Below are positions 12,459 to 53,892 of a stretch of 64,000 bases of DNA, in pieces. Every line of letters begins with the position of its first letter. Position 1 is the first letter of the stretch. The notes under the pieces are model-generated. The model was not told the origin of the DNA, did not search any database, and saw only the letters and a list, made by a program, of their open reading frames with translations. The stretch is from Candidatus Poribacteria bacterium (lineage in GTDB: Bacteria > Poribacteria > WGA-4E > PCPOR2b): NCBI GenBank assembly GCA_965220385.1, contig OZ244825.1, forward strand, positions 323,143 to 387,142. Direction: 5' to 3'. The position numbers and the translations under genes were made by a program.

Positions 12459-12483
12459 GTAGGGGCGAGGTTCTCTCGCCTAC
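12459..12483. repeat. REP-like hairpin element, family B (GTAGGGGCGAGGTTCYCTCGCC)
   Basis: Copies at 12459-12483 and 36234-36256. GGCGAGG/CCTCGCC stem. GTAG head. Confidence 0.7.
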
Positions 12484-31230: not shown

Positions 31231-32682
31231 CTATTTATCCTTTTTCCATACATAGACACACTTTCTCAACGCTTCCCGTCCGTGCCTACCCATCTGTTGG
31301 GAGCTATTCCCTTTACCTTGAGGCAGGACAAGGATTGTTTCTATCTGAAATCCAATGTCTTCAGCTATTTTTGAGAGGATTGTATCTACAGATATTGCAG
31401 CACCCGCATACCTAACATTGTCATTAACCATGAACATCATACCGTCTTTATCCAATACCCGGTAACATTCTTGGATAACACAAGCCATCTCATAAAAATA
31501 ACCCCTTACCATACGAGCAATTCCACTGTTATTGAGTTCTTTTTTATTCTTTTTGTAATCCAAGTAGTTCAATATCCCTTGCAGTAGAGGTAAGTCATCA
31601 CAAATGCCTATAGCCGTTTGCCATGCGGGGTTTAAGTCAATGAGCGCTTTTGCTCTGTTTTCTACCGTGCAACTTAACATCGCTTGCCGCAAGTTAGCTA
31701 ATCCAATTTCACTGACGCCAAGCAGCGCGTGTTCTAAAGCATAAGTGCGTGTATAATCATAACGATTGCAGTAGGGCGGTGACGTAATTATTCCAGAATA
31801 AGTCCGGCGTCCCAATTTCGGTAACACCTCTAAACATGAGCCTTTTAATAAATTCACATCGCCTGTCCGTATATCCTCCTGCATAGATGAAAATAGATCG
31901 CCTTCACCATCCCCAAGGTTCATATCATCTTTTATCTCGTTTAGTTTTTCTACAATGGCTTCATCAAATGACAAAATCTGCCCTTTGTCGAAAGGGTTCT
32001 TACCATTTCTACGTCCAGATCGGTAATCCCATCGGAGATACTGCCCATCTTTCCTTGTATAGCTTATCGATTCCAGAACACACAGCAGGGCAAACAGTAA
32101 TACCTCTTTTGTTTCTGGAGGTTCCCCTTCTAACTCGTTTAGGTATCTTCCGATTTTGTGGTGCGTTTTTTCAGGATACGCCCCATCGGTTATACGAAGC
32201 ACCTCAAAACCTTTGATTTCACCGTCGGCGTTCCAAGGTTTTTGAAGTAACCAGCTGTCCAATCCAGAAACAATGCTTTGTTTATTCGCACCCCTAGCGA
32301 GCATATTTGCCTGTATGATTTTTTGCCCAATTGGTAAGAGTTCAATTCCTTCAGTATGATACCCTAAAGAAGAACAGACAAATAAAGCAGTTCCCGCACC
32401 CGCAAACGGATCGAGTATTTTCCCCTTCATTACCTTGTACTTATGGAAAAGATACTCCACCAAATCCGCAGAGAAAGCCTCTTTGTATTTGTACCATCTA
32501 TAGTATGTACGGGTTTTATTCGCTTGGAAACTGACCAGTTTTCTGGTTAAAGCGTTATCAACGACAAGTGTATTGGGAAAATACTCGATTAAGGATTTAT
32601 CGAGTTCCTCTATTTGTTCCAAAAGCATATCGCCTTGGGTATGTTCGGATCCCTTAATCTCTTGGGCGGCATCAGCAGGCAT
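31231..32682 (-). CDS. DNA N6-adenine/N4-cytosine methyltransferase (motif I before motif IV, alpha-like order). Solitary: no adjacent endonuclease.
   Basis: Motif I ILDPFAGAGTALFV. Motif IV GIITSPPYCNRYDY about 200 aa downstream. Confidence 0.7.
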   Translation of the reverse strand: MPADAAQEIKGSEHTQGDMLLEQIEELDKSLIEYFPNTLVVDNALTRKLVSFQANKTRTYYRWYKYKEAFSADLVEYLFHKYKVMKGKILDPFAGAGTALFVCSSLGYHTEGIELLPIGQKIIQANMLARGANKQSIVSGLDSWLLQKPWNADGEIKGFEVLRITDGAYPEKTHHKIGRYLNELEGEPPETKEVLLFALLCVLESISYTRKDGQYLRWDYRSGRRNGKNPFDKGQILSFDEAIVEKLNEIKDDMNLGDGEGDLFSSMQEDIRTGDVNLLKGSCLEVLPKLGRRTYSGIITSPPYCNRYDYTRTYALEHALLGVSEIGLANLRQAMLSCTVENRAKALIDLNPAWQTAIGICDDLPLLQGILNYLDYKKNKKELNNSGIARMVRGYFYEMACVIQECYRVLDKDGMMFMVNDNVRYAGAAISVDTILSKIAEDIGFQIETILVLPQGKGNSSQQMGRHGREALRKCVYVWKKDK

Positions 32683-33813: not shown

Positions 33814-34689
33814 TTAATCCGCTAACTTCCAGCCGATATCGATACTTGGGTAATCCTCAACGTAACGCTGTAACTTCGGAGGGAGTCCTTCCATGAACCG
33901 GTGCGCGGATTCAGGTAATTCCCACGGAATTGAGAGCTTTTCTTGAGTCGGACGGAAAATAAAGCCGCATGAGAGACGGGGTTCATCGCCGCCGTGTGGA
34001 AAAGCACCGTGATACGTCCGCGCCGCAAAGATGATGAGATCGCCCGGCTCTGTGAAAAGTGGAACTGTGCCCGGCATATCCATCCGATCATACGGTTTCG
34101 GTTCTTCGCCCGTTCGGTGAAATGAGCGTTGGTCCGGCGTGAATTCAAACCCTTCAGGCGGTTGCCAGTCTGCCCGATGAGAGTCCTCGATCACTGCAAG
34201 GCCCGCTCGGCTCGGATGGGTGCCGTTGAGATAGAACCACATACCGTTGGGCCAATCGCCGCGATTCAGCACGTCGCCGGAGTGTTTTGGCGGCGGTTCA
34301 GAAAAGCCACACCAGTCGGTATGCCACAGCACCGGACCCGATTCAACATTCTTCAGGATTGCAGCGGATCGATGGACGGTGAGCGCGTCTGTCCCAAAAA
34401 CAGATCGATTGATATTCAGATAATCTTCATTCTCAAGCAGTTTCCAAAGGGGCTTTGAGTATTCAATGAAAGCGTGTTTGACACGCGTTTCCCCAAGTCC
34501 CAAGTCACCCTCCGGATCGAGAACTTGGCTGACCGATTCCTTCAATTCCTCCACATAATCCAGCGACAATACCCCCTTTACAACGGCAAAACCGTGTGCA
34601 TCATGACACGCCTTAATCGCTGAGAGTTCGTCTGCCGTAAATTCATATCGATACGGTAAGTCGACAGGTTGAAAGTTATCTTTGGACAT
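33814..34689 (-). CDS. Phytanoyl-CoA dioxygenase (PhyH)-family Fe(II)/2OG oxygenase
   Basis: HTDW (HxD) facial-triad context. Distal His in YHGAFPHGG. About 290 aa. Confidence 0.5.
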   Translation of the reverse strand: MSKDNFQPVDLPYRYEFTADELSAIKACHDAHGFAVVKGVLSLDYVEELKESVSQVLDPEGDLGLGETRVKHAFIEYSKPLWKLLENEDYLNINRSVFGTDALTVHRSAAILKNVESGPVLWHTDWCGFSEPPPKHSGDVLNRGDWPNGMWFYLNGTHPSRAGLAVIEDSHRADWQPPEGFEFTPDQRSFHRTGEEPKPYDRMDMPGTVPLFTEPGDLIIFAARTYHGAFPHGGDEPRLSCGFIFRPTQEKLSIPWELPESAHRFMEGLPPKLQRYVEDYPSIDIGWKLAD

Positions 34690-34703: not shown

Positions 34704-36146
34704 TTACTCCATAGCAATCGCAAAGAGCGTATTCCGACTCACGATATACAGCACACCGTCTTTTGCTACCGGGGTGGTATAAACGGCGCTCCCCATGTTG
34801 GTCTCAAAAATAAGCTCTTTCTCTTTGCCCGCTTTTAAGATGGCGAGATCTCCGTCCTCGTCTCCGATGTATACTTTCCCATCCGCCACGAATGTCGATC
34901 CCCAAATCGCAGCAAATGTGTCATACGTCCAATGATGTTCACCCGTATTCGCATCAAGGCAGTAGACGAAACCGCTCAGGTCTGCTATGTAGAGCAAGTC
35001 ATCCTCGATTGCTGCGGTAGACATTGTGCGATGGAAATTCTCGTCGCCCCGATGCCAGACCGCACCCGTCTCAGTGATGTCCCCTTCACCCGTTGCATCG
35101 ATCACCCAGAGGTGTCCAACGCCCTCACCGTGTTCTGGATCCTGTCCCACGCTGATATAAACCTTATCCTCCCAGATGACAGGGGTCGAAATGATGTTAT
35201 TGCGTGTCCCTCTCCCACCCAATTCCCACACTGAATCTTTGGGATTGCAGTCGAACTTCCAGATCAATTTCCCGGTCTCAGGCTCGAGGGAATAGATCCA
35301 ACCGTCGCCACCGGGAAAGATAGCTTGGGGTATGCCGTTGATTACCCCGTAGGCGGGGTTAGACCATTGACCGTGTAAGATGTTTTCGGCAGGAGAGGCA
35401 TCTTCCCAAACCAGTTCGCCGGTCGTCTTATTGAGCGCGATAAAGCTCGGCGCAAAAGGGGAAGGAATGTGCACATGTCCTTCATCAACGCCATTGCTCG
35501 TTTCTACAAAGAGCAAATCGCCTACACCAATCGGGGAACAGGTGGCGAGATTGTGCGGAAAAACCTCCAACTCCTCGATCATATCGTACTTCCAGATAAT
35601 GTCCCCATCAATTTCGCTGGTATCAGTTTCCTCCGTGAAAGGACCATCATTTTCACCGTCCATGAAGCCTTCGGTATCAACGCAGACAACTTCAGCGCGA
35701 TTGGAAACATAGTAGAGTCGATCGTCTTCGATGAAAGGTGTCGAACAGATACCCTGTTGGGGCCAATCGTTGACGCGTCCGGCAGGGAGTTTGGTGTGTG
35801 TGGATTGCCAGAGAAATTCTCCATCCGATTCACGGAATGCCATGATGACGCCACGATCGCCGGTAAGTTTCGGATTTCGTCTGCCTTGGTTGTTTGTCCC
35901 GACAAACACCTTGCCACCGATGAGGATAGGACCCGCATAAGTCTGAGAGCCTAAGGTCGCCGTCCATTTGATGTTTAGTCCAGTTTTCGCGTCCCATTTT
36001 ACCGGCAGATTCTTCTCATCGGAAACAAGGTTACGCGATGGTGTAAAGCCCCACATCGCCGTCTCAGCGAAGGCGGGTGTTCCCGATACTATTAGCACTG
36101 TTAAGAGAATGATAGCACCCGTTCCTATAATCTGTTGATATTTCAT
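34704..36146 (-). CDS. PQQ-repeat beta-propeller protein with signal peptide
   Basis: Signal peptide MKYQQIIGTGAIILLTVLIVSGTPAFA. Multiple W-containing propeller blades (DGEFLWQSTH, GDIIWKYDM, GELVWEDAS, GKLIWKFD, GEHHWTYD). Confidence 0.7.
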   Translation of the reverse strand: MKYQQIIGTGAIILLTVLIVSGTPAFAETAMWGFTPSRNLVSDEKNLPVKWDAKTGLNIKWTATLGSQTYAGPILIGGKVFVGTNNQGRRNPKLTGDRGVIMAFRESDGEFLWQSTHTKLPAGRVNDWPQQGICSTPFIEDDRLYYVSNRAEVVCVDTEGFMDGENDGPFTEETDTSEIDGDIIWKYDMIEELEVFPHNLATCSPIGVGDLLFVETSNGVDEGHVHIPSPFAPSFIALNKTTGELVWEDASPAENILHGQWSNPAYGVINGIPQAIFPGGDGWIYSLEPETGKLIWKFDCNPKDSVWELGGRGTRNNIISTPVIWEDKVYISVGQDPEHGEGVGHLWVIDATGEGDITETGAVWHRGDENFHRTMSTAAIEDDLLYIADLSGFVYCLDANTGEHHWTYDTFAAIWGSTFVADGKVYIGDEDGDLAILKAGKEKELIFETNMGSAVYTTPVAKDGVLYIVSRNTLFAIAME

Positions 36147-36233: not shown

Positions 36234-36322
36234 GTAGGGGCGAGGTTCCCTCGCCCAACGGGTTGGACAACCCCGCCCCTACAGGAATTAACCCAATGTA
36301 GGGGCAACCCTTGTGGTTGCCC
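36234..36322. repeat. Cluster of REP-like elements: a family B copy, a GTAGGGGCG...CGCCCCTAC hairpin and a family C copy (GTAGGGGCAACCCTTGTGGTTGCCC), downstream of the DUF4276/ATPase pair
   Basis: Three consecutive GTAG-headed palindromes within 90 bp. Family C copies also occur at 7720-7745 and 47431-47455. Confidence 0.7.
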
Positions 36323-36408: not shown

Positions 36409-37182
36409 TTAAAAATTGTCTAACTGCGTTCGTGTGATTTCACTCAGTTTTCCGTCGTGAAGTCTGTATTTGTCATAGAGATCTGTACAATCGTGATCAG
36501 AATATGTTTCCAACACCTTTACACACCAAGCAAACAGGGTTCTGAGCGAAGCGCATGTATCGGGGCGAGATAGAACATGCTCAATGCCGATTTTATCCAA
36601 AATTGCTCCACCGTGTTCAATAGTATCAAAGTTGGAATACAGTCCTTCAAGTTTATCTTTGGGATGGCGGATTTCTTCTACATCACCTTCATAATCTGAT
36701 AAACAGGTGCCCAAGACCTCGTTAATTACTTGTGCGTCGGCGAAGTAGTACGCCTCAAGCATATTCACCAGAAAATGCACGGAGGCGCGATGCTTCAAAT
36801 CGTTTAATATCGTATCAAGTGCCGTTCGATAGCGTTCAAAGACCTCTGGCGCCTCATCTTTGCGGTCATACTCCAAATCATCGATTAAGAGAACAAAGTA
36901 GTAAGGATCATTTTTCAGATACCTTCTTGCCTTGAACCCAATTACCTCGTCTCTGTCCGGCATTTTCTTGCCGTTGCGAAGTGCTTTAAGTCTTTCCTCT
37001 GAAGTAATTGGGTCGCGTTGACCGACGCGCTGAATCACTTTAAAGTTGCAAGTCCCGGTTGCCCTTAGAGATCCGAATAATTCTGGCAGATACTGTCGTT
37101 CAGTTTTGCCGGTAACGATTAAGACGAAATGGAAATAAGCGTATCGCGGGTAGTCGGCAGGCTGTGTATCCTGTTCGGTCAT
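36409..37182 (-). CDS. DUF4276-like protein. Downstream partner of the AAA ATPase; candidate abortive-infection/defence effector.
   Basis: N-terminal FHFVLIVTGKTERQYLPELF resembles the hhVEGxTExxFV signature of DUF4276. Start overlaps the ATPase stop by 4 nt. Confidence 0.5.
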   Translation of the reverse strand: MTEQDTQPADYPRYAYFHFVLIVTGKTERQYLPELFGSLRATGTCNFKVIQRVGQRDPITSEERLKALRNGKKMPDRDEVIGFKARRYLKNDPYYFVLLIDDLEYDRKDEAPEVFERYRTALDTILNDLKHRASVHFLVNMLEAYYFADAQVINEVLGTCLSDYEGDVEEIRHPKDKLEGLYSNFDTIEHGGAILDKIGIEHVLSRPDTCASLRTLFAWCVKVLETYSDHDCTDLYDKYRLHDGKLSEITRTQLDNF

Positions 37183-38375
37183 TCGCCCTCCTCTTGAATT
37201 TCAGGTTTACTTTGGGGGGCAATGGCTTCAGCCATGTAGAGGGACCCTGTATCGTAGCTTTCCAACAAATCTTTAATATCTTCCATCTCACTGACTCGTG
37301 TCAAAACAGTCTGACCGGATTCATCCAGTCCTGTTGCCAAAATATCTTCTGGCTCAAACTGCCCAATCAAAACCGGGGAGTGTGTCGCGATGAAAACCTG
37401 TTTATTCCATTCCTTTGTGGCTAGCTTGACCGCTTCCGCAAACACAGAGATAGCGTAAGGGTGAAGCGAAGTCTCCGGCTCATCGAACAAGATGAGCAGG
37501 CCGCTTCCTTTTTCCTTAGCAAACAGTGCAGTTAGCAGAATAAGCATTTGTAATTGCCCTTCGGATTCACTTAATACTGGAATTGGATATTGCAGATTTT
37601 TTTGCACGAAGTTGGCGTAGACTGTGTTTGGCCCAGAGCGATCAAACACCAAATCTTTGAAATTGGGGAAACTCTTTCGCATGAAATTAATGATAGTTTC
37701 ATAACGCTGATCGATTGCAATTTTACCATGAATATTCTGCAAAACTGACCATAGATTCTCACCTTTCTCGTACAACGAGATATTCGTACCTGATTCTGAG
37801 CCGCGTTGTTTGAGCCCGGATAGGTCTATATAATGAGAATGGTAAAAATGGACAGAGTTGAGCAGATCTCGTAAGTTGAAAACGTCCGGCGGAATAAGTT
37901 CCGTTCCTTGCATATACTGAATCAAAGCAAGTTTTTCTGGAAAGGTCAACCGCGTCCGCACCGGAGGATTTTCTTCATGATAACAGAAATCAGCCGTATC
38001 ACTACTTATTCTTCGAAATATTGAGGGGACTTTTCTTTCTTTAGAATACAGAACTTCCCCTGCATAGGGTTGAATTTGTCCAACTGAAAATTCTAATAGG
38101 AGTACATATAGGGAAAGGGTTGTCTCCAATGTAATTGATATGTATTCCGGGCCATCAACGTCCTGTTGCAACATACCAAAACCGTTATTTCGCGTCCTAC
38201 CAGCTTCAGCAACGTCTCGGGAAACACAATCCCTAACGAACCGCATTGCTTCCAACAAAGTTGATTTCCCTGACCCATTCGGTCCAAACAGAACATTAAT
38301 TGGGCGCAGTTCAACTGAGACATCTGCCAATGATCTGAAATTTTTGACTTGTAAACGGGTTAATAGATTTGCCAT
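37179..38375 (-). CDS. ABC-type AAA ATPase (AAA_21/AAA_15-like, OLD/AbiLi/AriA-like N-terminus)
   Basis: LQVKNFRSLADVSVELRPINVLFGPNGSGKSTLLEAM Walker A. C-terminal Walker B/D-loop LILFDEPETSLHP...IATHSP. Confidence 0.75.
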   Translation of the reverse strand: MANLLTRLQVKNFRSLADVSVELRPINVLFGPNGSGKSTLLEAMRFVRDCVSRDVAEAGRTRNNGFGMLQQDVDGPEYISITLETTLSLYVLLLEFSVGQIQPYAGEVLYSKERKVPSIFRRISSDTADFCYHEENPPVRTRLTFPEKLALIQYMQGTELIPPDVFNLRDLLNSVHFYHSHYIDLSGLKQRGSESGTNISLYEKGENLWSVLQNIHGKIAIDQRYETIINFMRKSFPNFKDLVFDRSGPNTVYANFVQKNLQYPIPVLSESEGQLQMLILLTALFAKEKGSGLLILFDEPETSLHPYAISVFAEAVKLATKEWNKQVFIATHSPVLIGQFEPEDILATGLDESGQTVLTRVSEMEDIKDLLESYDTGSLYMAEAIAPQSKPEIQEEGE

Positions 38376-38384
38376 GACATCTCC

Positions 38385-40604
38385 TCAATTCCGCCAAACC
38401 TTCAGGTTATCGTAGTAGACCTCAGCAGGCGAATAGCCGTAGATCCCCGGACTCCCCTCCCGATTCGGCAGCGGATCTTCGACAGTAATCGTCCATGCCT
38501 CCGGCTCCGGCTCACCCCTTGCCCAAACCTTTCCCTTGACATGCGCCGTATCATCGACGATATCCACCGTCATTTTCATCCTATACCAGACGTTCGGCTC
38601 CCACTTGAAGTCAATCCACTCTGCCATTCGGAGATCGGATCGCCATGAAAGCACCTGAAGCCGTTGGTGATTGCCCTGCATCTCAAGCGTGTAGCGATGG
38701 GCGATGAGTCCCATGTCTGGCATATTCCGCTTCGGCTTGGTTCCCAGCAAATCGACCTGAACGGTGTAATCCTTCATGTTCGGGGGACCGATATAGACAT
38801 TAGAGCGGTGTAACCCACGGCGGGCAGGCGGTTTGACGAGAATTTTGTTCCCATCCACCTCACGGACGACGAATCGGTTTGTTGCACGGACCCAGTGCGG
38901 TGGACTCTTCCCTTCCTCTATCGACTCAAAATCTTCCTGCCACGGTAACGGCGGAATCACGCGAACCCGTGCGGAGTTGCTTATATCCCCAATCTTTGCC
39001 AACACCGTTCCGGCTTGACCGACTGGACTCGATTCAAGAGTCAACTTGCCGCTGTCATCAATTACCCCTGACAACCCATTGAGCGACCATTCGACATCCT
39101 TTTTACCGACGCTCCCTCTGCCTTCATCGGTAAATGCCTGTACACTAAATTGGATACTGTCTCCCGGTTCGGCTAAGACTTCAGTAGGGGTAATCTGTAT
39201 CGATGCGGGCGCATCGGTAGACATCATCATACCAGCACGGTCTGGTACAGAGACAGATTGGCTTGAGGCAGAAGATCCCTGAACCCCTAAGCAGTAAAGC
39301 CCTTCCTCGGTGGTAAAGTAAACTCGACCGTCAGCGATGGCGGGTGAACCGTAAATTTCCGCGTAGTGGCCGGGTTCCCTTTCAATCTGTGTTGTGCTGA
39401 GCGTTTTGCATTCGCGCTCGCTCGGTTGCAGGATGTGGAAGTGTCCGTTGACTTCGGTGACATAGATTTTACCGTCCGCGACAACAGGCGATCCCTTGCC
39501 CACTGTGCCGAGGCTATGTGTCCAATGCACCTCCCCGGTTTCGCCATCAAGACAGTGTAAATTCGCCGAGCTATCCACAACATAAAGCCGACCGTCAGCT
39601 ATTGCTGGAGAGCTATAACCCGCCTCTATGCCGTTAACCCGCCAGAGTTCGTGCGTCTTGGTAATATCCCCCGTACCCGATCCATCGATGCAGACAACCC
39701 GCCCCATCACCGTCGTGTCGGTGTTCTCCCGATTGTGGCTTGCGTAGACCCGTGTGCCATCTACAACCACCGACGCATTGAGCGGGCCCTGACTGACTTG
39801 GAATCCCCAAACTTTCTCACCCGTTTGCATGTCCATAGCATACACATGACCGTCCGAGTTGCCGTCGATTAACAACCGACGCCCATTTATCTCTGCGACG
39901 ACAGAGACAGGATAGGTCGTGTCCTTCGGAGGACCACCGGGCTTCGCTGTCCACACCACCTCGCCGGTCTTTTTGTCGAAGGCAAAATAACGATGGCGCA
40001 TCGCGGCGTGGTCTCCCCAACTAGTGTTGAGGAAACTAAGAATCACAAGGTCCCCATCCACAACCGGTGTAACGGTGCGCCCACCATAGCCCGTGAATCG
40101 ACCATATTCCTCCGTCAAAGAGTGTGACCAGACAACCTTTCCGTCCTTGTCGAAACAGGCAAACACGCCGCTGATAGTGTGGGCATAAATGTATCCCGTT
40201 TCCCTATCGCCAGCTAAACTGGTCCAGCCCAATCGGTTAAAAGGGATGGTGCTGTGAAAGACGTTAAATCGATGTTCCCAGAGCATATCTCCCGACTCTG
40301 CATCAAAACACGCAACCCGTTCCTGTTCAGTGATGTCCATTCCAACGCGCCCGATGACATAAACCCGACTGTTCAGAACGATTGGCGTCGAACGCCCCAT
40401 AAAATCGGCTTTCCAAAGTAAGTTTTCACCCTCCAGCGACCAGTTTGAAATTAACCCAGTTTCTGAGGACGAACCGGTCTGATTTGGACCCCGCCAACTT
40501 GCCCAATCTGAGGCAAATGCGCCGTTAAAGCCTATCAAGCAAACACACAGATTTGCTCCTATCAACAGATACAGAATTGTTTTAAGCGTAACCCGATTTC
40601 GCAT
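38385..40604 (-). CDS. PQQ-repeat beta-propeller fused to a C-terminal DUF1080 (LamG-like jelly-roll, 3-keto-disaccharide hydrolase-like) domain. Secreted.
   Basis: N-terminal signal and DWASWRGPNQTGSSSETG motif. Multiple propeller blades. C-terminal ~200 aa ending YYDNLKVWRN, matching the DUF1080 C-terminal FDNhkV pattern. Confidence 0.7.
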   Translation of the reverse strand: MRNRVTLKTILYLLIGANLCVCLIGFNGAFASDWASWRGPNQTGSSSETGLISNWSLEGENLLWKADFMGRSTPIVLNSRVYVIGRVGMDITEQERVACFDAESGDMLWEHRFNVFHSTIPFNRLGWTSLAGDRETGYIYAHTISGVFACFDKDGKVVWSHSLTEEYGRFTGYGGRTVTPVVDGDLVILSFLNTSWGDHAAMRHRYFAFDKKTGEVVWTAKPGGPPKDTTYPVSVVAEINGRRLLIDGNSDGHVYAMDMQTGEKVWGFQVSQGPLNASVVVDGTRVYASHNRENTDTTVMGRVVCIDGSGTGDITKTHELWRVNGIEAGYSSPAIADGRLYVVDSSANLHCLDGETGEVHWTHSLGTVGKGSPVVADGKIYVTEVNGHFHILQPSERECKTLSTTQIEREPGHYAEIYGSPAIADGRVYFTTEEGLYCLGVQGSSASSQSVSVPDRAGMMMSTDAPASIQITPTEVLAEPGDSIQFSVQAFTDEGRGSVGKKDVEWSLNGLSGVIDDSGKLTLESSPVGQAGTVLAKIGDISNSARVRVIPPLPWQEDFESIEEGKSPPHWVRATNRFVVREVDGNKILVKPPARRGLHRSNVYIGPPNMKDYTVQVDLLGTKPKRNMPDMGLIAHRYTLEMQGNHQRLQVLSWRSDLRMAEWIDFKWEPNVWYRMKMTVDIVDDTAHVKGKVWARGEPEPEAWTITVEDPLPNREGSPGIYGYSPAEVYYDNLKVWRN

Positions 40605-47430: not shown

Positions 47431-47455
47431 GTAGGGGCAATCCTTGTGGTCGCCC
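47431..47455. repeat. REP-like hairpin element family C copy
   Basis: GTAGGGGCAATCCTTGTGGTCGCCC. Confidence 0.65.
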
Positions 47456-52866: not shown

Positions 52867-53333
52867 TCTCTCAATGCGGTCAAACAACCTCTCTTCTTGA
52901 TGATCCTTTTTCACCATTTGATGCAGATTTTATTCTCGAAATGGGGACCACGGTCTCATTGACTCGCGCCACAGGCTTTTCGGCACGACCTTTTAACGGC
53001 CTGAGCCTTTACCAAATCTTGGGCTCTGCAATTTTACAGTTGTCGACATTGACGTGGCTGCAACCGTAGTACTGATCCAACCGGTATTTAACCTGCCTCT
53101 ATTTTTCACCAGCCTTTTTCGATGTTTTTTTGTCCGGCAATGTTAGTCATAACCAAAAGTAACAGCGATCAACACTTCTGCTCAAAATCTCGGAATGACT
53201 GATCTTCTAACTGAACTCTCGCTGCACTTCGTAAAACACTTTCTAAGACTGGGGAAAAGTCGCTTCCGTGTGACGGATTCGACCCATTTTTGCGCTAACT
53301 CTGGTACATCACAATTATTTTAAGAAAAAAGTC

Positions 53334-53362
53334 TTGACAGAAAATTGCAGAAGTGTTATCTT
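53334..53362 (+). promoter_or_regulatory. Candidate sigma70 promoter (TTGACA-17 nt-TATCTT) driving a ~530 nt leader ahead of the large lipoprotein/OMP gene
   Basis: TTGACA at 53334-53339. 17-nt spacer. TATCTT at 53357-53362. No sizeable ORF between it and 53893. Confidence 0.35.
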
Positions 53363-53892
53363 AGAGATTACTTTTTTTCAGAAGCAGAACTTCATTGAGA
53401 AAAAAAGTATCAACTGAATGGCGGCAGCAACACAGATGGGAAACGTGAATACCGTCCAAGTCAAGCATGTGGATCATCCCGCTTACCGAATGAGCAATGG
53501 CTTAATCTGAATCAGTACTTAATTGAATGTTAGTTGTTACATGCCAACTGCTTTCAGATGCTTGTATCCCCCGAAATTGGGCTACAAGCCTTAACCTGAT
53601 GCCGCTGGAACCTAACGCCAGCAGAGAAAACGTAAAGACCGGTTTTGCACCGAATCTGGGTAATTAAATAGTTGCGTATTGCTAATGAATCCTTGCAAAA
53701 GGAGGTTGCGATATGTTCCACCACTGACGCAAGTTAAAATAGGAGATGGATTGGTAGACGGTCACAAACTCCGAAGCCGTGATTGATTCGACTCTCCTAT
53801 TTCGACTTGATGCACGGATGAACGTTATTATGGACGTTTTATATCCTCACTTTTATGTCAAATGTAATTTATGATTTCCTCAAGGAGGCAAA

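What the first reader, a model, noticed from the sequence alone, without database searches (positions are those of the whole stretch)
36409..38375. Translationally coupled AAA_21-like ATPase plus DUF4276-like gene pair: candidate abortive-infection/defence system flanked by REP-like repeats
The 398 aa ABC-like ATPase has an N-terminal Walker A (VLFGPNGSGKST) and a C-terminal Walker B/D-loop. It overlaps by 4 nt a 257 aa protein whose N-terminus (FHFVLIVTGKTERQYLPELF) resembles the DUF4276 signature. ATPase plus small-effector pairs of this type (AbiL, PARIS AriAB, Septu, Gabija-like) are characteristic anti-phage modules. The pair is inserted between unrelated PQQ-propeller genes. A cluster of three GTAG-headed hairpins lies immediately downstream (36234-36322), consistent with an accessory insertion. 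A solitary DNA methyltransferase lies about 4 kb away.
Basis: partly seen in the sequence, partly recalled or inferred. Interest (0 to 1): 0.65.

Follow-up and report, generated by a model that had tools for sequence, protein, structure and literature searches.

The report
ATPase–nuclease pair fixed in Poribacteria operon
This is a two-gene ATPase plus Toprim-like nuclease module of a known candidate anti-phage type (PADLOC "HEC-01"); it is not a recent insertion but an old one that every sampled sponge-symbiont Poribacteria genome carrying the pair keeps at the same spot inside a conserved operon, where it evolves much faster than its neighbours.

Summary
A 398-aa ABC-type ATPase (37179-38375, minus strand) overlaps a 257-aa DUF4276-like protein (36409-37182, minus strand) by 4 nt.

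The ATPase matches PADLOC HEC-01A over its full length (4e-50). The small protein only just passes Pfam DUF4276 (31.5 vs 30.2 bits) and matches HEC-01B weakly. All 73 relatives tested hit DUF4276. A confident AF2 model (pLDDT 92) has Toprim-like topology, with invariant E28 and D101-D102.

The window is from a Candidatus Poribacteria genome. In 22 of 22 Poribacteria loci found through the small protein, the pair sits between the same two PQQ-propeller genes. In 64 of 68 more distant relatives those two genes are adjacent (median gap 14 nt) and no pair is present. So this is one ancient insertion into an operon that was then retained.

The pair stays low-GC (0.43-0.47 vs 0.50-0.56). Its dN/dS is 0.15-0.35 against 0.02-0.12 for flanking genes. 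ATPase and small-protein identities are uncorrelated between genomes (r = 0.06).

The REP-like hairpins are secondary. The methyltransferase is an unrelated remnant of a BsoBI-type restriction-modification system.

Verdict: a new, divergent member of a known candidate defence type with an unusual fixed-slot evolutionary pattern. Its function is inferred, not shown.

The parts
37179..38375 (-). ABC-type (AAA_21/AAA_15) ATPase, 398 aa, subunit A. It has conserved Walker A, signature, Walker B, D-loop and H-loop motifs. A fast-evolving insert covers residues ~54-181.
   Evidence: ORF. Pfam AAA_21 2e-29 and AAA_15 1e-25. PADLOC HEC-01A 4.4e-50 over residues 3-386. PDB sequence hits to an OLD-family nuclease, AriA and GajA. 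Motif invariance in A5. Sliding dN/dS.
36409..37182 (-). DUF4276-like predicted Toprim-fold protein, 257 aa, subunit B and putative nuclease effector. Invariant residues include E28, D102, E104, H136, E143 and D167-V-E169; D101 is nearly invariant. There is a C-terminal helical extension.
37179..37182 (-). ATGA overlap: the B start codon overlaps the A stop codon (translational coupling).
   Evidence: Sequence. The same 4-nt overlap occurs in 10 of 15 Poribacteria loci, and the others lie within -1 to +21 nt apart from one over-extended ORF call.
38376..38386 (-). Junction with the upstream PQQ-propeller gene. There is a 9-nt spacer, and a GAGGAG Shine-Dalgarno-like motif overlaps the upstream stop codon. 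This implies co-transcription with the PQQ operon (inferred).
   Evidence: Sequence. A 9-nt spacing is also seen in L001, L163 and L165 gene calls. The count of promoter-like sites in the scanned region was not above chance.
36234..36322 (.). Three REP-like GTAGGGGC-headed hairpin units (36234-36256 +, 36260-36282 -, 36298-36322 +) in the 262-nt spacer after gene B. They are secondary colonisers of the spacer, not part of the cassette.
   Evidence: A comparable cluster at this position is present only in L011 among 18 Poribacteria loci.
38385..40604 (-). Upstream insertion-site flank: PQQ_2 beta-propeller protein, 739 aa.
   Evidence: Pfam PQQ_2 3.8e-34. Its ortholog lies directly next to the 480-aa PQQ gene in 64 of 68 loci that lack the pair.
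34704..36146 (-). Downstream insertion-site flank: PQQ_2 beta-propeller protein, 480 aa.
   Evidence: Pfam PQQ_2 4.7e-27. Synteny.

Best explanation
The pair is a self-contained two-gene ABC-ATPase/Toprim-like nuclease module of the HEC-01 type. That type belongs to the OLD/PARIS/Gabija class, in which an ATPase controls a Toprim nuclease.

**Shown**
- The two genes are translationally coupled.
- They occur together in every locus where the upstream region is present, across at least nine phyla.
- Both keep their predicted catalytic residues.
- Both are under purifying selection.
- The cassette was inserted once into the short spacer between two adjacent PQQ-propeller genes, in an ancestor of the sponge-associated Poribacteria, and has stayed there.
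- It retains a low-GC signature, evolves several-fold faster at the protein level than its neighbours, and its A and B alleles have been reshuffled between lineages.

**Inferred**
- The ATPase forms a complex with the DUF4276 protein and keeps it inactive.
- The fast-evolving ATPase insert (residues ~54-181) senses an invader-derived cue.
- ATP binding or hydrolysis then frees or activates the Toprim-like nuclease, which cuts nucleic acid (tRNA as in PARIS, or DNA as in OLD and Gabija) and halts infection or growth.
- Expression is inferred to ride on the PQQ operon transcript, given the 9-nt spacing.

The confidence figure is for the functional reading (a conflict or defence module). The family assignment and the insertion history are much firmer, at about 0.9.
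For: **Family**
- ATPase: HEC-01A 4.4e-50, full length.
- Small protein: DUF4276 hit in 73/73 relatives and HEC-01B in 57/73.
- The literature places DUF4276 in the Toprim superfamily (PMC12065111) and describes HEC-01B as TOPRIM-like with a metal site shared with BpOLD (bioRxiv 10.1101/2024.01.29.577857).

**Structure**
- The AF2 model has pLDDT 91.9. E28 follows strand 1 and D101-D102 end strand 3.

**Module integrity**
- A lies immediately upstream of B in essentially all 80 loci; the exceptions are cut by contig ends.
- Both genes are intact and the ATGA overlap is conserved.
- dN/dS is 0.15-0.35, so the genes are functional.

**Insertion and retention**
- Same slot in 22/22 Poribacteria loci.
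- Empty sites in 64/68 distant relatives.
- Poribacteria A and B are each monophyletic.

**Conflict-like evolution**
- Mean identity is 72.6% (A) and 70.4% (B), against 88.8-95.1% for flanks.
- The A-B identity correlation is 0.06. Examples: L008-L020 A 95% / B 70%; L009-L011 A 63% / B 83%.
- Divergence concentrates in the ATPase insert and in B residues 53-94.

**Experiment**
- One HEC-01 representative protected E. coli B against at least one of T4, T5 and T7 (PMC12881386).
Against: - No function was tested here.
- The HEC-01 representative tested by Payne et al. gave no protection against their phage panel.
- No window of either gene has dN/dS above 1, so faster evolution could reflect relaxed constraint.
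- Outside Poribacteria the neighbours are mostly housekeeping genes rather than defence islands.
- The subfamily was not found on phages, plasmids or viral contigs.
- Stable retention at a single slot is atypical for defence cargo.
- The ATPase AF2 model was poor (pLDDT 62.7), so the idea that its insert acts as a sensor rests on analogy.
Confidence: 0.6

Rival explanations
1. The pair is a selfish addiction (toxin-antitoxin-like) module. B would be a toxic nuclease neutralised by A, and the pair would persist in its slot because losing it is lethal, with no benefit against phages.
For: - It is retained in 22/22 loci at one position.
- It is not associated with defence islands in other phyla.
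- Pfam itself labels AAA_21 'putative AbiEii toxin, Type IV TA system'.
- The HEC-01 phage test in Payne et al. was negative.
Against: - Chromosomal TA pairs usually decay or vary in presence. Here both genes stay intact under purifying selection over dS of 0.6 to above 3.
- Independent reshuffling of A and B alleles (r = 0.06) would be hazardous for a tightly matched toxin-antidote pair.
- One HEC-01 system did protect against phage.
- Addiction and abortive-infection defence are not mutually exclusive.
Confidence: 0.2
2. The pair has been domesticated into a housekeeping role linked to the PQQ-propeller operon, for example nucleic-acid repair or RNA processing co-regulated with that pathway. 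On this view it is no longer a conflict system in Poribacteria.
For: - It is packed like an operon member: 9 nt after the upstream PQQ gene and, in relatives, about 22-45 nt before the next one.
- This arrangement is conserved across all sampled Poribacteria.
- The count of promoter-like sites in the scanned region was not above chance.
Against: - In about 60 loci from other phyla the same cassette has no PQQ neighbours and varied contexts.
- Its dN/dS is 3-8 times that of the operon genes, and its alleles are shuffled independently of the flanks. A co-adapted pathway component would not be expected to behave this way.
- The low-GC composition has never ameliorated.
Confidence: 0.08
3. The pair works together with the nearby DNA methyltransferase as a methylation-associated (MADS/Hma-like) or restriction-type system.
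For: - The ATPase hits Mad3 models (PADLOC 8.8e-30; NCBIfam 124.7 bits).
- DUF4276 is the Mad4 domain.
- A methyltransferase lies 3.7 kb away.
Against: - The NCBIfam MAD3 score is far below its cutoff of 420.
- No family member hits a Mad4 model.
- The methyltransferase is present in only 7 of 22 loci that carry the pair and is separated from it by three conserved metabolic genes.
- In L009 and L013 the methyltransferase is followed by its own BsoBI-family endonuclease (Pfam 1e-138).
- Only 2 of 108 neighbour ORFs in other phyla are methyltransferases.
Confidence: 0.03

Closest known systems
HEC-01 (Hma-embedded candidate 01; PADLOC-DB; Payne et al. bioRxiv 10.1101/2024.01.29.577857)
   Same: It has the same two-gene architecture: an ABC ATPase followed by a TOPRIM-like DUF4276 protein. 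The ATPase matches HEC-01A models over its full length (4e-50). The small-protein family matches only HEC-01B models among effector families.
   Different: - The small protein belongs to a compact, divergent subfamily: 370 representatives in 1.84 billion proteins.
- Its HEC-01B hits are weak (1e-4 to 2e-8) and it has a C-terminal helical extension.
- It is not embedded in an Hma system (at most 2 of 108 neighbouring ORFs hit mad6 or methyltransferase models).
- In Poribacteria it occupies a fixed slot in a metabolic operon rather than a variable locus.
PARIS (AriA ABC ATPase + AriB DUF4435 Toprim; PMC11464382)
   Same: It shares the AAA_15/21 ABC ATPase paired with a separate Toprim-superfamily nuclease. 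The ATPase hits AriA models (1.5e-32) and AriA structures by sequence (1e-7). PARIS provides the mechanistic template of sensor scaffold and released nuclease.
   Different: - The effector is DUF4276-like, not DUF4435, and has no AriB or DUF4435 hit.
- Foldseek to AriB is not significant.
- The cassette was not found on phages, satellites or plasmids.
MADS Mad3/Mad4 (methylation-associated defence system)
   Same: Mad3 is an AAA_21-type ATPase and Mad4 is a DUF4276 protein. The window ATPase hits Mad3 models.
   Different: - The NCBIfam MAD3 score is 124.7 against a cutoff of 420.
- There is no Mad4 model hit.
- The other mad genes are absent from the locus.
- The nearby methyltransferase belongs to a BsoBI-type R-M system.
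OLD-family nucleases and Gabija GajA
   Different: In OLD and GajA the ATPase and Toprim are fused in one polypeptide, whereas here they are separate genes. There is no GajB-like helicase partner.
AbiL (AbiLi/AbiLii)
   Same: The ATPase has a partial AbiLi hit (5.8e-28), and the organisation is a two-gene ATPase plus small partner.
   Different: No member of the small-protein family hit any AbiL or RloB model at the thresholds used. From my own knowledge, not checked here, AbiLii is usually described as RloB-like.

Membership tests
HEC-01 (PADLOC) | ABC ATPase matching a HEC-01A profile | tested here: met
   PDLC04175 at 4.4e-50, residues 3-386 against profile positions 4-359 of 363. Two further HEC-01A models score below 1e-45.
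HEC-01 (PADLOC) | Adjacent TOPRIM/DUF4276 protein matching a HEC-01B profile | tested here: inconclusive
   The window protein hits PDLC04210 only at E 1.1e-4, 20 bits. Across the family, 57/73 members hit HEC-01B models, best 2e-8. The match is consistent but weak, and PADLOC's own calling thresholds were not run.
HEC-01 (PADLOC) | Confers phage resistance | not testable with these tools
   The literature is mixed for other HEC-01 members: negative, positive.
Pfam DUF4276 (PF14103) | Whole-protein score at or above the gathering threshold (30.2 bits) | tested here: met
   31.5 bits, E 2.6e-7, residues 81-206. This is borderline, but 73/73 relatives hit the family, best 1.1e-11.
Toprim superfamily | Three-layer alpha/beta fold with a conserved Glu after strand 1 and a DxD-type acidic motif after strand 3 | tested here: met
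PARIS (AriA/AriB) | Partner protein is a DUF4435-type Toprim (AriB) | tested here: not met
   None of the 73 family members hit DUF4435 or AriB in Pfam (E up to 1) or PADLOC.
MADS | Mad3 equivalog score and presence of the other mad genes, including the methyltransferase Mad2 | tested here: not met
   NCBIfam MAD3 scores 124.7 bits against a cutoff of 420. Flanking genes are PQQ propellers. The nearby methyltransferase is a type II MTase (1e-160), with mad2 only at 7e-5.
OLD family (class 1/2) / Gabija GajA | ATPase and Toprim domains fused in one protein (plus a GajB helicase for Gabija) | tested here: not met
   There are two separate ORFs with a 4-nt overlap, and no helicase gene is adjacent.
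AbiL | AbiLii partner next to AbiLi | tested here: not met
   There is only a partial AbiLi hit, 5.8e-28. No member of the small-protein family hit any AbiL or RloB model at the thresholds used.
REP elements | Dispersed intergenic short palindromic units with a conserved GTAG head | tested here: met
   GTAGGGGC followed by a stem-loop occurs 5 times in the window against 0.8 expected. Unit sequences were read. A cognate RAYT transposase was not looked for.

The most novel reading that the evidence does not exclude
The locus would be a fixed-position, hypervariable immune locus. An HEC-01-like cassette was captured once into a core operon of sponge-symbiont Poribacteria and has been kept for a very long time. 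Its ATPase (sensor) and nuclease (effector) alleles are exchanged independently between lineages by homologous recombination, under balancing or diversifying selection from sponge-associated phages. This would be closer to a polymorphic core immune gene than to the usual gain-and-loss dynamics of defence islands.
Probability: 0.3. Interest if true: 0.6.

Novelty: new member of a known kind. Interest (0 to 1): 0.4.

Why it matters
The ATPase-plus-DUF4276 architecture is already catalogued as a candidate defence system, so the gene pair itself is not a discovery.

What the locus adds is a natural experiment. There is one dated insertion event, with empty sites preserved in outgroups. It was followed by long vertical retention in an uncultivated sponge-symbiont lineage, with elevated protein divergence and shuffling of partner alleles at a constant genomic address.

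If the pair is a defence system, it would be a case where immune diversity is generated by allelic turnover in place rather than by island gain and loss. It also supplies dozens of natural A/B allele combinations for testing specificity and subunit compatibility in this poorly characterised family.

Tried and rejected
- **ATPase structure:** the AF2 model from a 35-sequence MSA was poor (pLDDT 62.7), so it was not used for fold searches.
- **Fold searches:** Foldseek of the small-protein model against the PDB gave no significant match. The AFDB50 library was unavailable.
- **PDB by sequence:** a profile of the small protein found nothing even at E 10.
- **Mobile-element carriage:** no homolog of the small protein was found in IMG/VR viral contigs, PLSDB plasmids or GenBank phages.
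- **RNA genes:** Rfam (permissive over the locus, gathering threshold over the window) and tRNA scans found nothing.
- **Promoters and terminators:** counts were not above shuffled expectation, so they carry no weight.
- **Exact-sequence look-up:** the window's own small protein was not on record.
- **REPs as cassette boundaries:** rejected, because they are absent from this spacer in all but one relative.
- **Link to the methyltransferase:** rejected on its presence/absence pattern and on its own cognate endonuclease in relatives.
- **Positive selection:** no 30-codon window has dN/dS above 1, so diversifying selection is not demonstrated.
- **Other inserts at the same junction:** the L090 and L095 ORFs have no Pfam hits; one L090 ORF has only a weak HEPN hit at 5.5e-5.
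- **Empty slots within the sponge clade:** The frequency of empty slots within the sponge clade is therefore unknown.
Full report
**1. What is in the sequence**

A 398-aa protein is encoded at 37179-38375 and a 257-aa protein at 36409-37182, both on the minus strand. They overlap in ATGA.

The ATPase carries a complete set of ABC-type motifs: Walker A G31PNGSGKST, a signature-like SEGQ at 271-274, Walker B D298-E299, D-loop SLHP and H-loop H332. All are invariant among 35 homologs.

The upstream PQQ-propeller gene (38385-40604) ends only 9 nt before the ATPase start codon, and a GAGGAG motif overlaps its stop codon. Downstream there is a 262-nt spacer holding three GTAGGGGC-headed hairpin units at 36234-36322. 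That octamer occurs 5 times in the window against 0.8 expected, with similar units at 12459 and 47431.

The pair is one of the three lowest-GC stretches of the 64-kb window: 0.448, against about 0.50-0.52 around it.

**2. Family assignment**

- **ATPase.** Pfam gives AAA_21 (2e-29) and AAA_15 (1e-25). The best PADLOC match is HEC-01A, full length, at 4.4e-50. This is ahead of AriA (1.5e-32), mad3 (8.8e-30) and AbiLi (5.8e-28). The NCBIfam MAD3 score is 124.7 bits, far below its cutoff of 420.
- **Small protein, sequence evidence.** It only just passes Pfam DUF4276 (31.5 vs 30.2 bits) and hits one HEC-01B model at 1e-4. The assignment is consistent at the family level. All 73 relatives hit DUF4276 (best 1e-11), and 57 of 73 hit HEC-01B models (best 2e-8). 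None hits DUF4435/AriB, RloB, Mad4 or OLD-Toprim models.
- **Subfamily size.** An exhaustive profile search of 1.84 billion cluster representatives returns only 370 hits at E ≤ 1e-3. This is a compact, discrete subfamily rather than mainstream DUF4276.
- **Small protein, structure.** An AF2 model from a 73-sequence alignment is confident (pLDDT 91.9, pTM 0.90). Strand 1 (17-23) is followed by invariant E28. Strand 3 (95-103) ends in D101, D102 and E104. Strand 4 (133-139) is followed by invariant E143. This is the Toprim pattern described for DUF4276 in PMC12065111.
- **ATPase structure.** The AF2 model was poor (pLDDT 62.7) and was not used.

**3. Literature**

- ABC ATPase plus TOPRIM (DUF4276) is the candidate system HEC-01 of Payne et al. 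(bioRxiv 10.1101/2024.01.29.577857). Their representative gave no protection in E. coli against the phages tested.
- A later study reports that a randomly chosen HEC-01 cluster protected E. coli B against at least one of T4, T5 and T7 (PMC12881386).
- PARIS (PMC11464382) is the best-studied relative in the AAA_15/21 plus Toprim class.

**4. Where it comes from and how it got there**

A scan of species-representative genomes identifies the source as Candidatus Poribacteria, a sponge-symbiont lineage with genomes of about 6 Mb.

*Filled sites.* Every Poribacteria locus recovered through the small protein has the order PQQ739, ATPase, DUF4276, PQQ480, with the same outer flanks. This holds for 18 loci from that scan and an ENA look-up, plus four further ENA contigs, so 22 of 22.

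*Empty sites.* A metagenome scan anchored on PQQ480 returned 80 more distant orthologs at 60-82% identity.
- 68 of these loci carry both PQQ genes.
- In 64 of them the two genes are at most 146 nt apart (median 14 nt).
- Four carry unrelated inserts of 0.55-1.25 kb.
- None has any trace of the pair at E ≤ 1e-3.
- The single locus at 82% identity (L083) does have the small gene upstream.

*Single origin.* NJ trees place the Poribacteria ATPases and the Poribacteria small proteins each in one clade.

Together these results show one insertion into the short spacer of an ancestrally contiguous operon, at the base of the clade whose PQQ480 is at least 82% identical to the window's, followed by retention. 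That criterion is met within the clade. The idea of an insertion is right, but the event is old.

**5. The cassette as a unit**

Outside Poribacteria the ATPase is always immediately upstream of the small gene, at 38-57% and 46-60% identity to the window's proteins. This holds in Cyanobacteria, Chloroflexota, Planctomycetota, Gammaproteobacteria, Myxococcota, Acidobacteriota, Actinomycetota, Latescibacterota and others, and never with PQQ neighbours.

Among 108 immediate-neighbour ORFs, the commonest families are ParA-like ATPases, BipA, sensor kinases, MalK and RimM. Only 2 are methyltransferases and 2 are mad6-like. So the cassette is self-contained. It is rarely embedded in Hma/MADS systems and is not typically found in dense defence islands. 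It was not found on viral contigs, plasmids or phages.

**6. How it evolves in place**

- **Selection.** Against the window, the pair has dN/dS of 0.15-0.35 and the flanking genes 0.02-0.12. dS is mostly similar, at 0.6-0.9. Both genes are therefore maintained by selection but are less constrained than their neighbours.
- **Integrity.** The ATPase is intact in all 16 complete loci, and the small gene is intact in nearly all of them. The ATGA overlap is kept in 10 of 15.
- **Composition.** The GC of the pair is 0.43-0.48 in every locus, against 0.50-0.56 for most flanking genes.
- **Divergence.** Over 153 genome pairs, mean identity is 72.6% (A) and 70.4% (B), against 88.8-95.1% for eight flanking proteins.
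- **Allele shuffling.** A and B identities are uncorrelated (r = 0.06), and neither tracks the flanks (r = -0.03 and 0.16). Examples are L008-L020 at A 95% / B 70% and L009-L011 at A 63% / B 83%. dS anomalies agree with this. B has dS of 0.24-0.27 against L001 and L003 where flanks show 0.6-0.8. A has dS of 1.2-1.6 against L009 and L015. These patterns indicate recombinational shuffling of alleles within the slot.
- **Where the divergence lies.** It is concentrated in ATPase residues ~54-181 (dN/dS 0.27-0.48, against 0.06-0.14 in the catalytic core) and in B residues 53-94 (0.43-0.45). No window exceeds 1, so positive selection is not shown.

**7. Things attached to the finding that are not part of it**

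- **REP-like hairpins.** They follow the small gene only in the window and in L011. Most relatives have a spacer of only about 20-45 nt there. They are later colonisers.
- **Methyltransferase.** The gene at 31231-32682 is present in 7 of 22 loci. In L009 and L013 it is followed immediately by a 319-aa BsoBI-family endonuclease (Pfam 1e-138; PADLOC REase_II 3e-119). In L006 a TnpB-like gene sits beside it. In the window only 130 nt separate it from the next conserved gene. It is therefore an orphan remnant of a type II R-M system in a separate variable spot.

**8. Mechanism and verdict**

The best-supported reading is an HEC-01-type module in which the ATPase controls a Toprim-like nuclease, and which acts in genetic conflict. 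The sensing, release and cleavage steps are inferred by analogy with PARIS and OLD. What is shown here is the architecture, the conserved active-site residues, the co-inheritance, the selection regime and the insertion history.

The rivals are an addiction module, domestication into the PQQ operon's function, and a methyltransferase-linked system. The first two are less likely. The third is effectively excluded.

As a system type this is a new, divergent member of a known candidate kind. The fixed-slot, allele-shuffling pattern in an uncultivated symbiont lineage is the part worth following up.

Noticed in passing
window 31231-32682 (-); L009 14371-16830; L013 15459-17870: The 'solitary' N6_N4 methyltransferase is an orphan. 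In relatives L009 and L013 the orthologous gene is followed immediately by a 319-aa BsoBI-family restriction endonuclease (Pfam 1e-138). In the window only 130 nt separate the methyltransferase from the next conserved gene. The methyltransferase is present in 7 of 22 Poribacteria loci, so this is a separate variable R-M spot.
   Followed up: yes
L006 14322-15473 (-): A TnpB/Cas12f-like (OrfB_IS605 plus TNB domain) gene sits next to the methyltransferase in one relative. This suggests IS200/605-type activity at that variable spot.
   Followed up: partly
window 12459-12483, 36234-36322, 47431-47455: There is a dispersed REP-like family: a GTAGGGGC head followed by a 6-8 bp stem-loop. It occurs 5 times in the window against 0.8 expected. 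The same octamer occurs sporadically in other Poribacteria loci. No RAYT transposase was looked for.
   Followed up: partly
window 33814-34689 (-): The PhyH-family dioxygenase gene between PQQ480 and the AMP-binding-like gene also looks like a clade-specific addition. It is absent from the most divergent cassette-bearing Poribacteria locus (L017). It was also not detected in any of the 80 distant metagenome loci, where the AMP-binding-like gene usually follows PQQ480 directly.
   Followed up: partly
L090 1549-2454; L095 and L096 4734-5627; L143 4849-5407: Four distant relatives carry other inserts at the same PQQ739|PQQ480 junction. L090 has two small ORFs, one with a weak HEPN hit (PADLOC HEPN_IX, 5.5e-5). 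L095 and L096 have a 297-aa reverse-strand ORF with an internal duplication and no Pfam hit. The junction may be prone to insertions.
   Followed up: partly
window 52867-53870: A 1-kb stretch with no ORF of 100 aa or more has the lowest GC in the window (0.43). There is no Rfam family or tRNA, and its function is unknown. It lies upstream of a 1118-aa ORF that has no Pfam hit.
   Followed up: partly
L002 2267-3525: In one low-coverage ENA contig (5.5x) the ATPase is broken. Only the C-terminal ~150 aa remain in one ORF, and the N-terminal part gives fragmentary 34-37% matches. This is either real decay or long-read assembly error.
   Followed up: no
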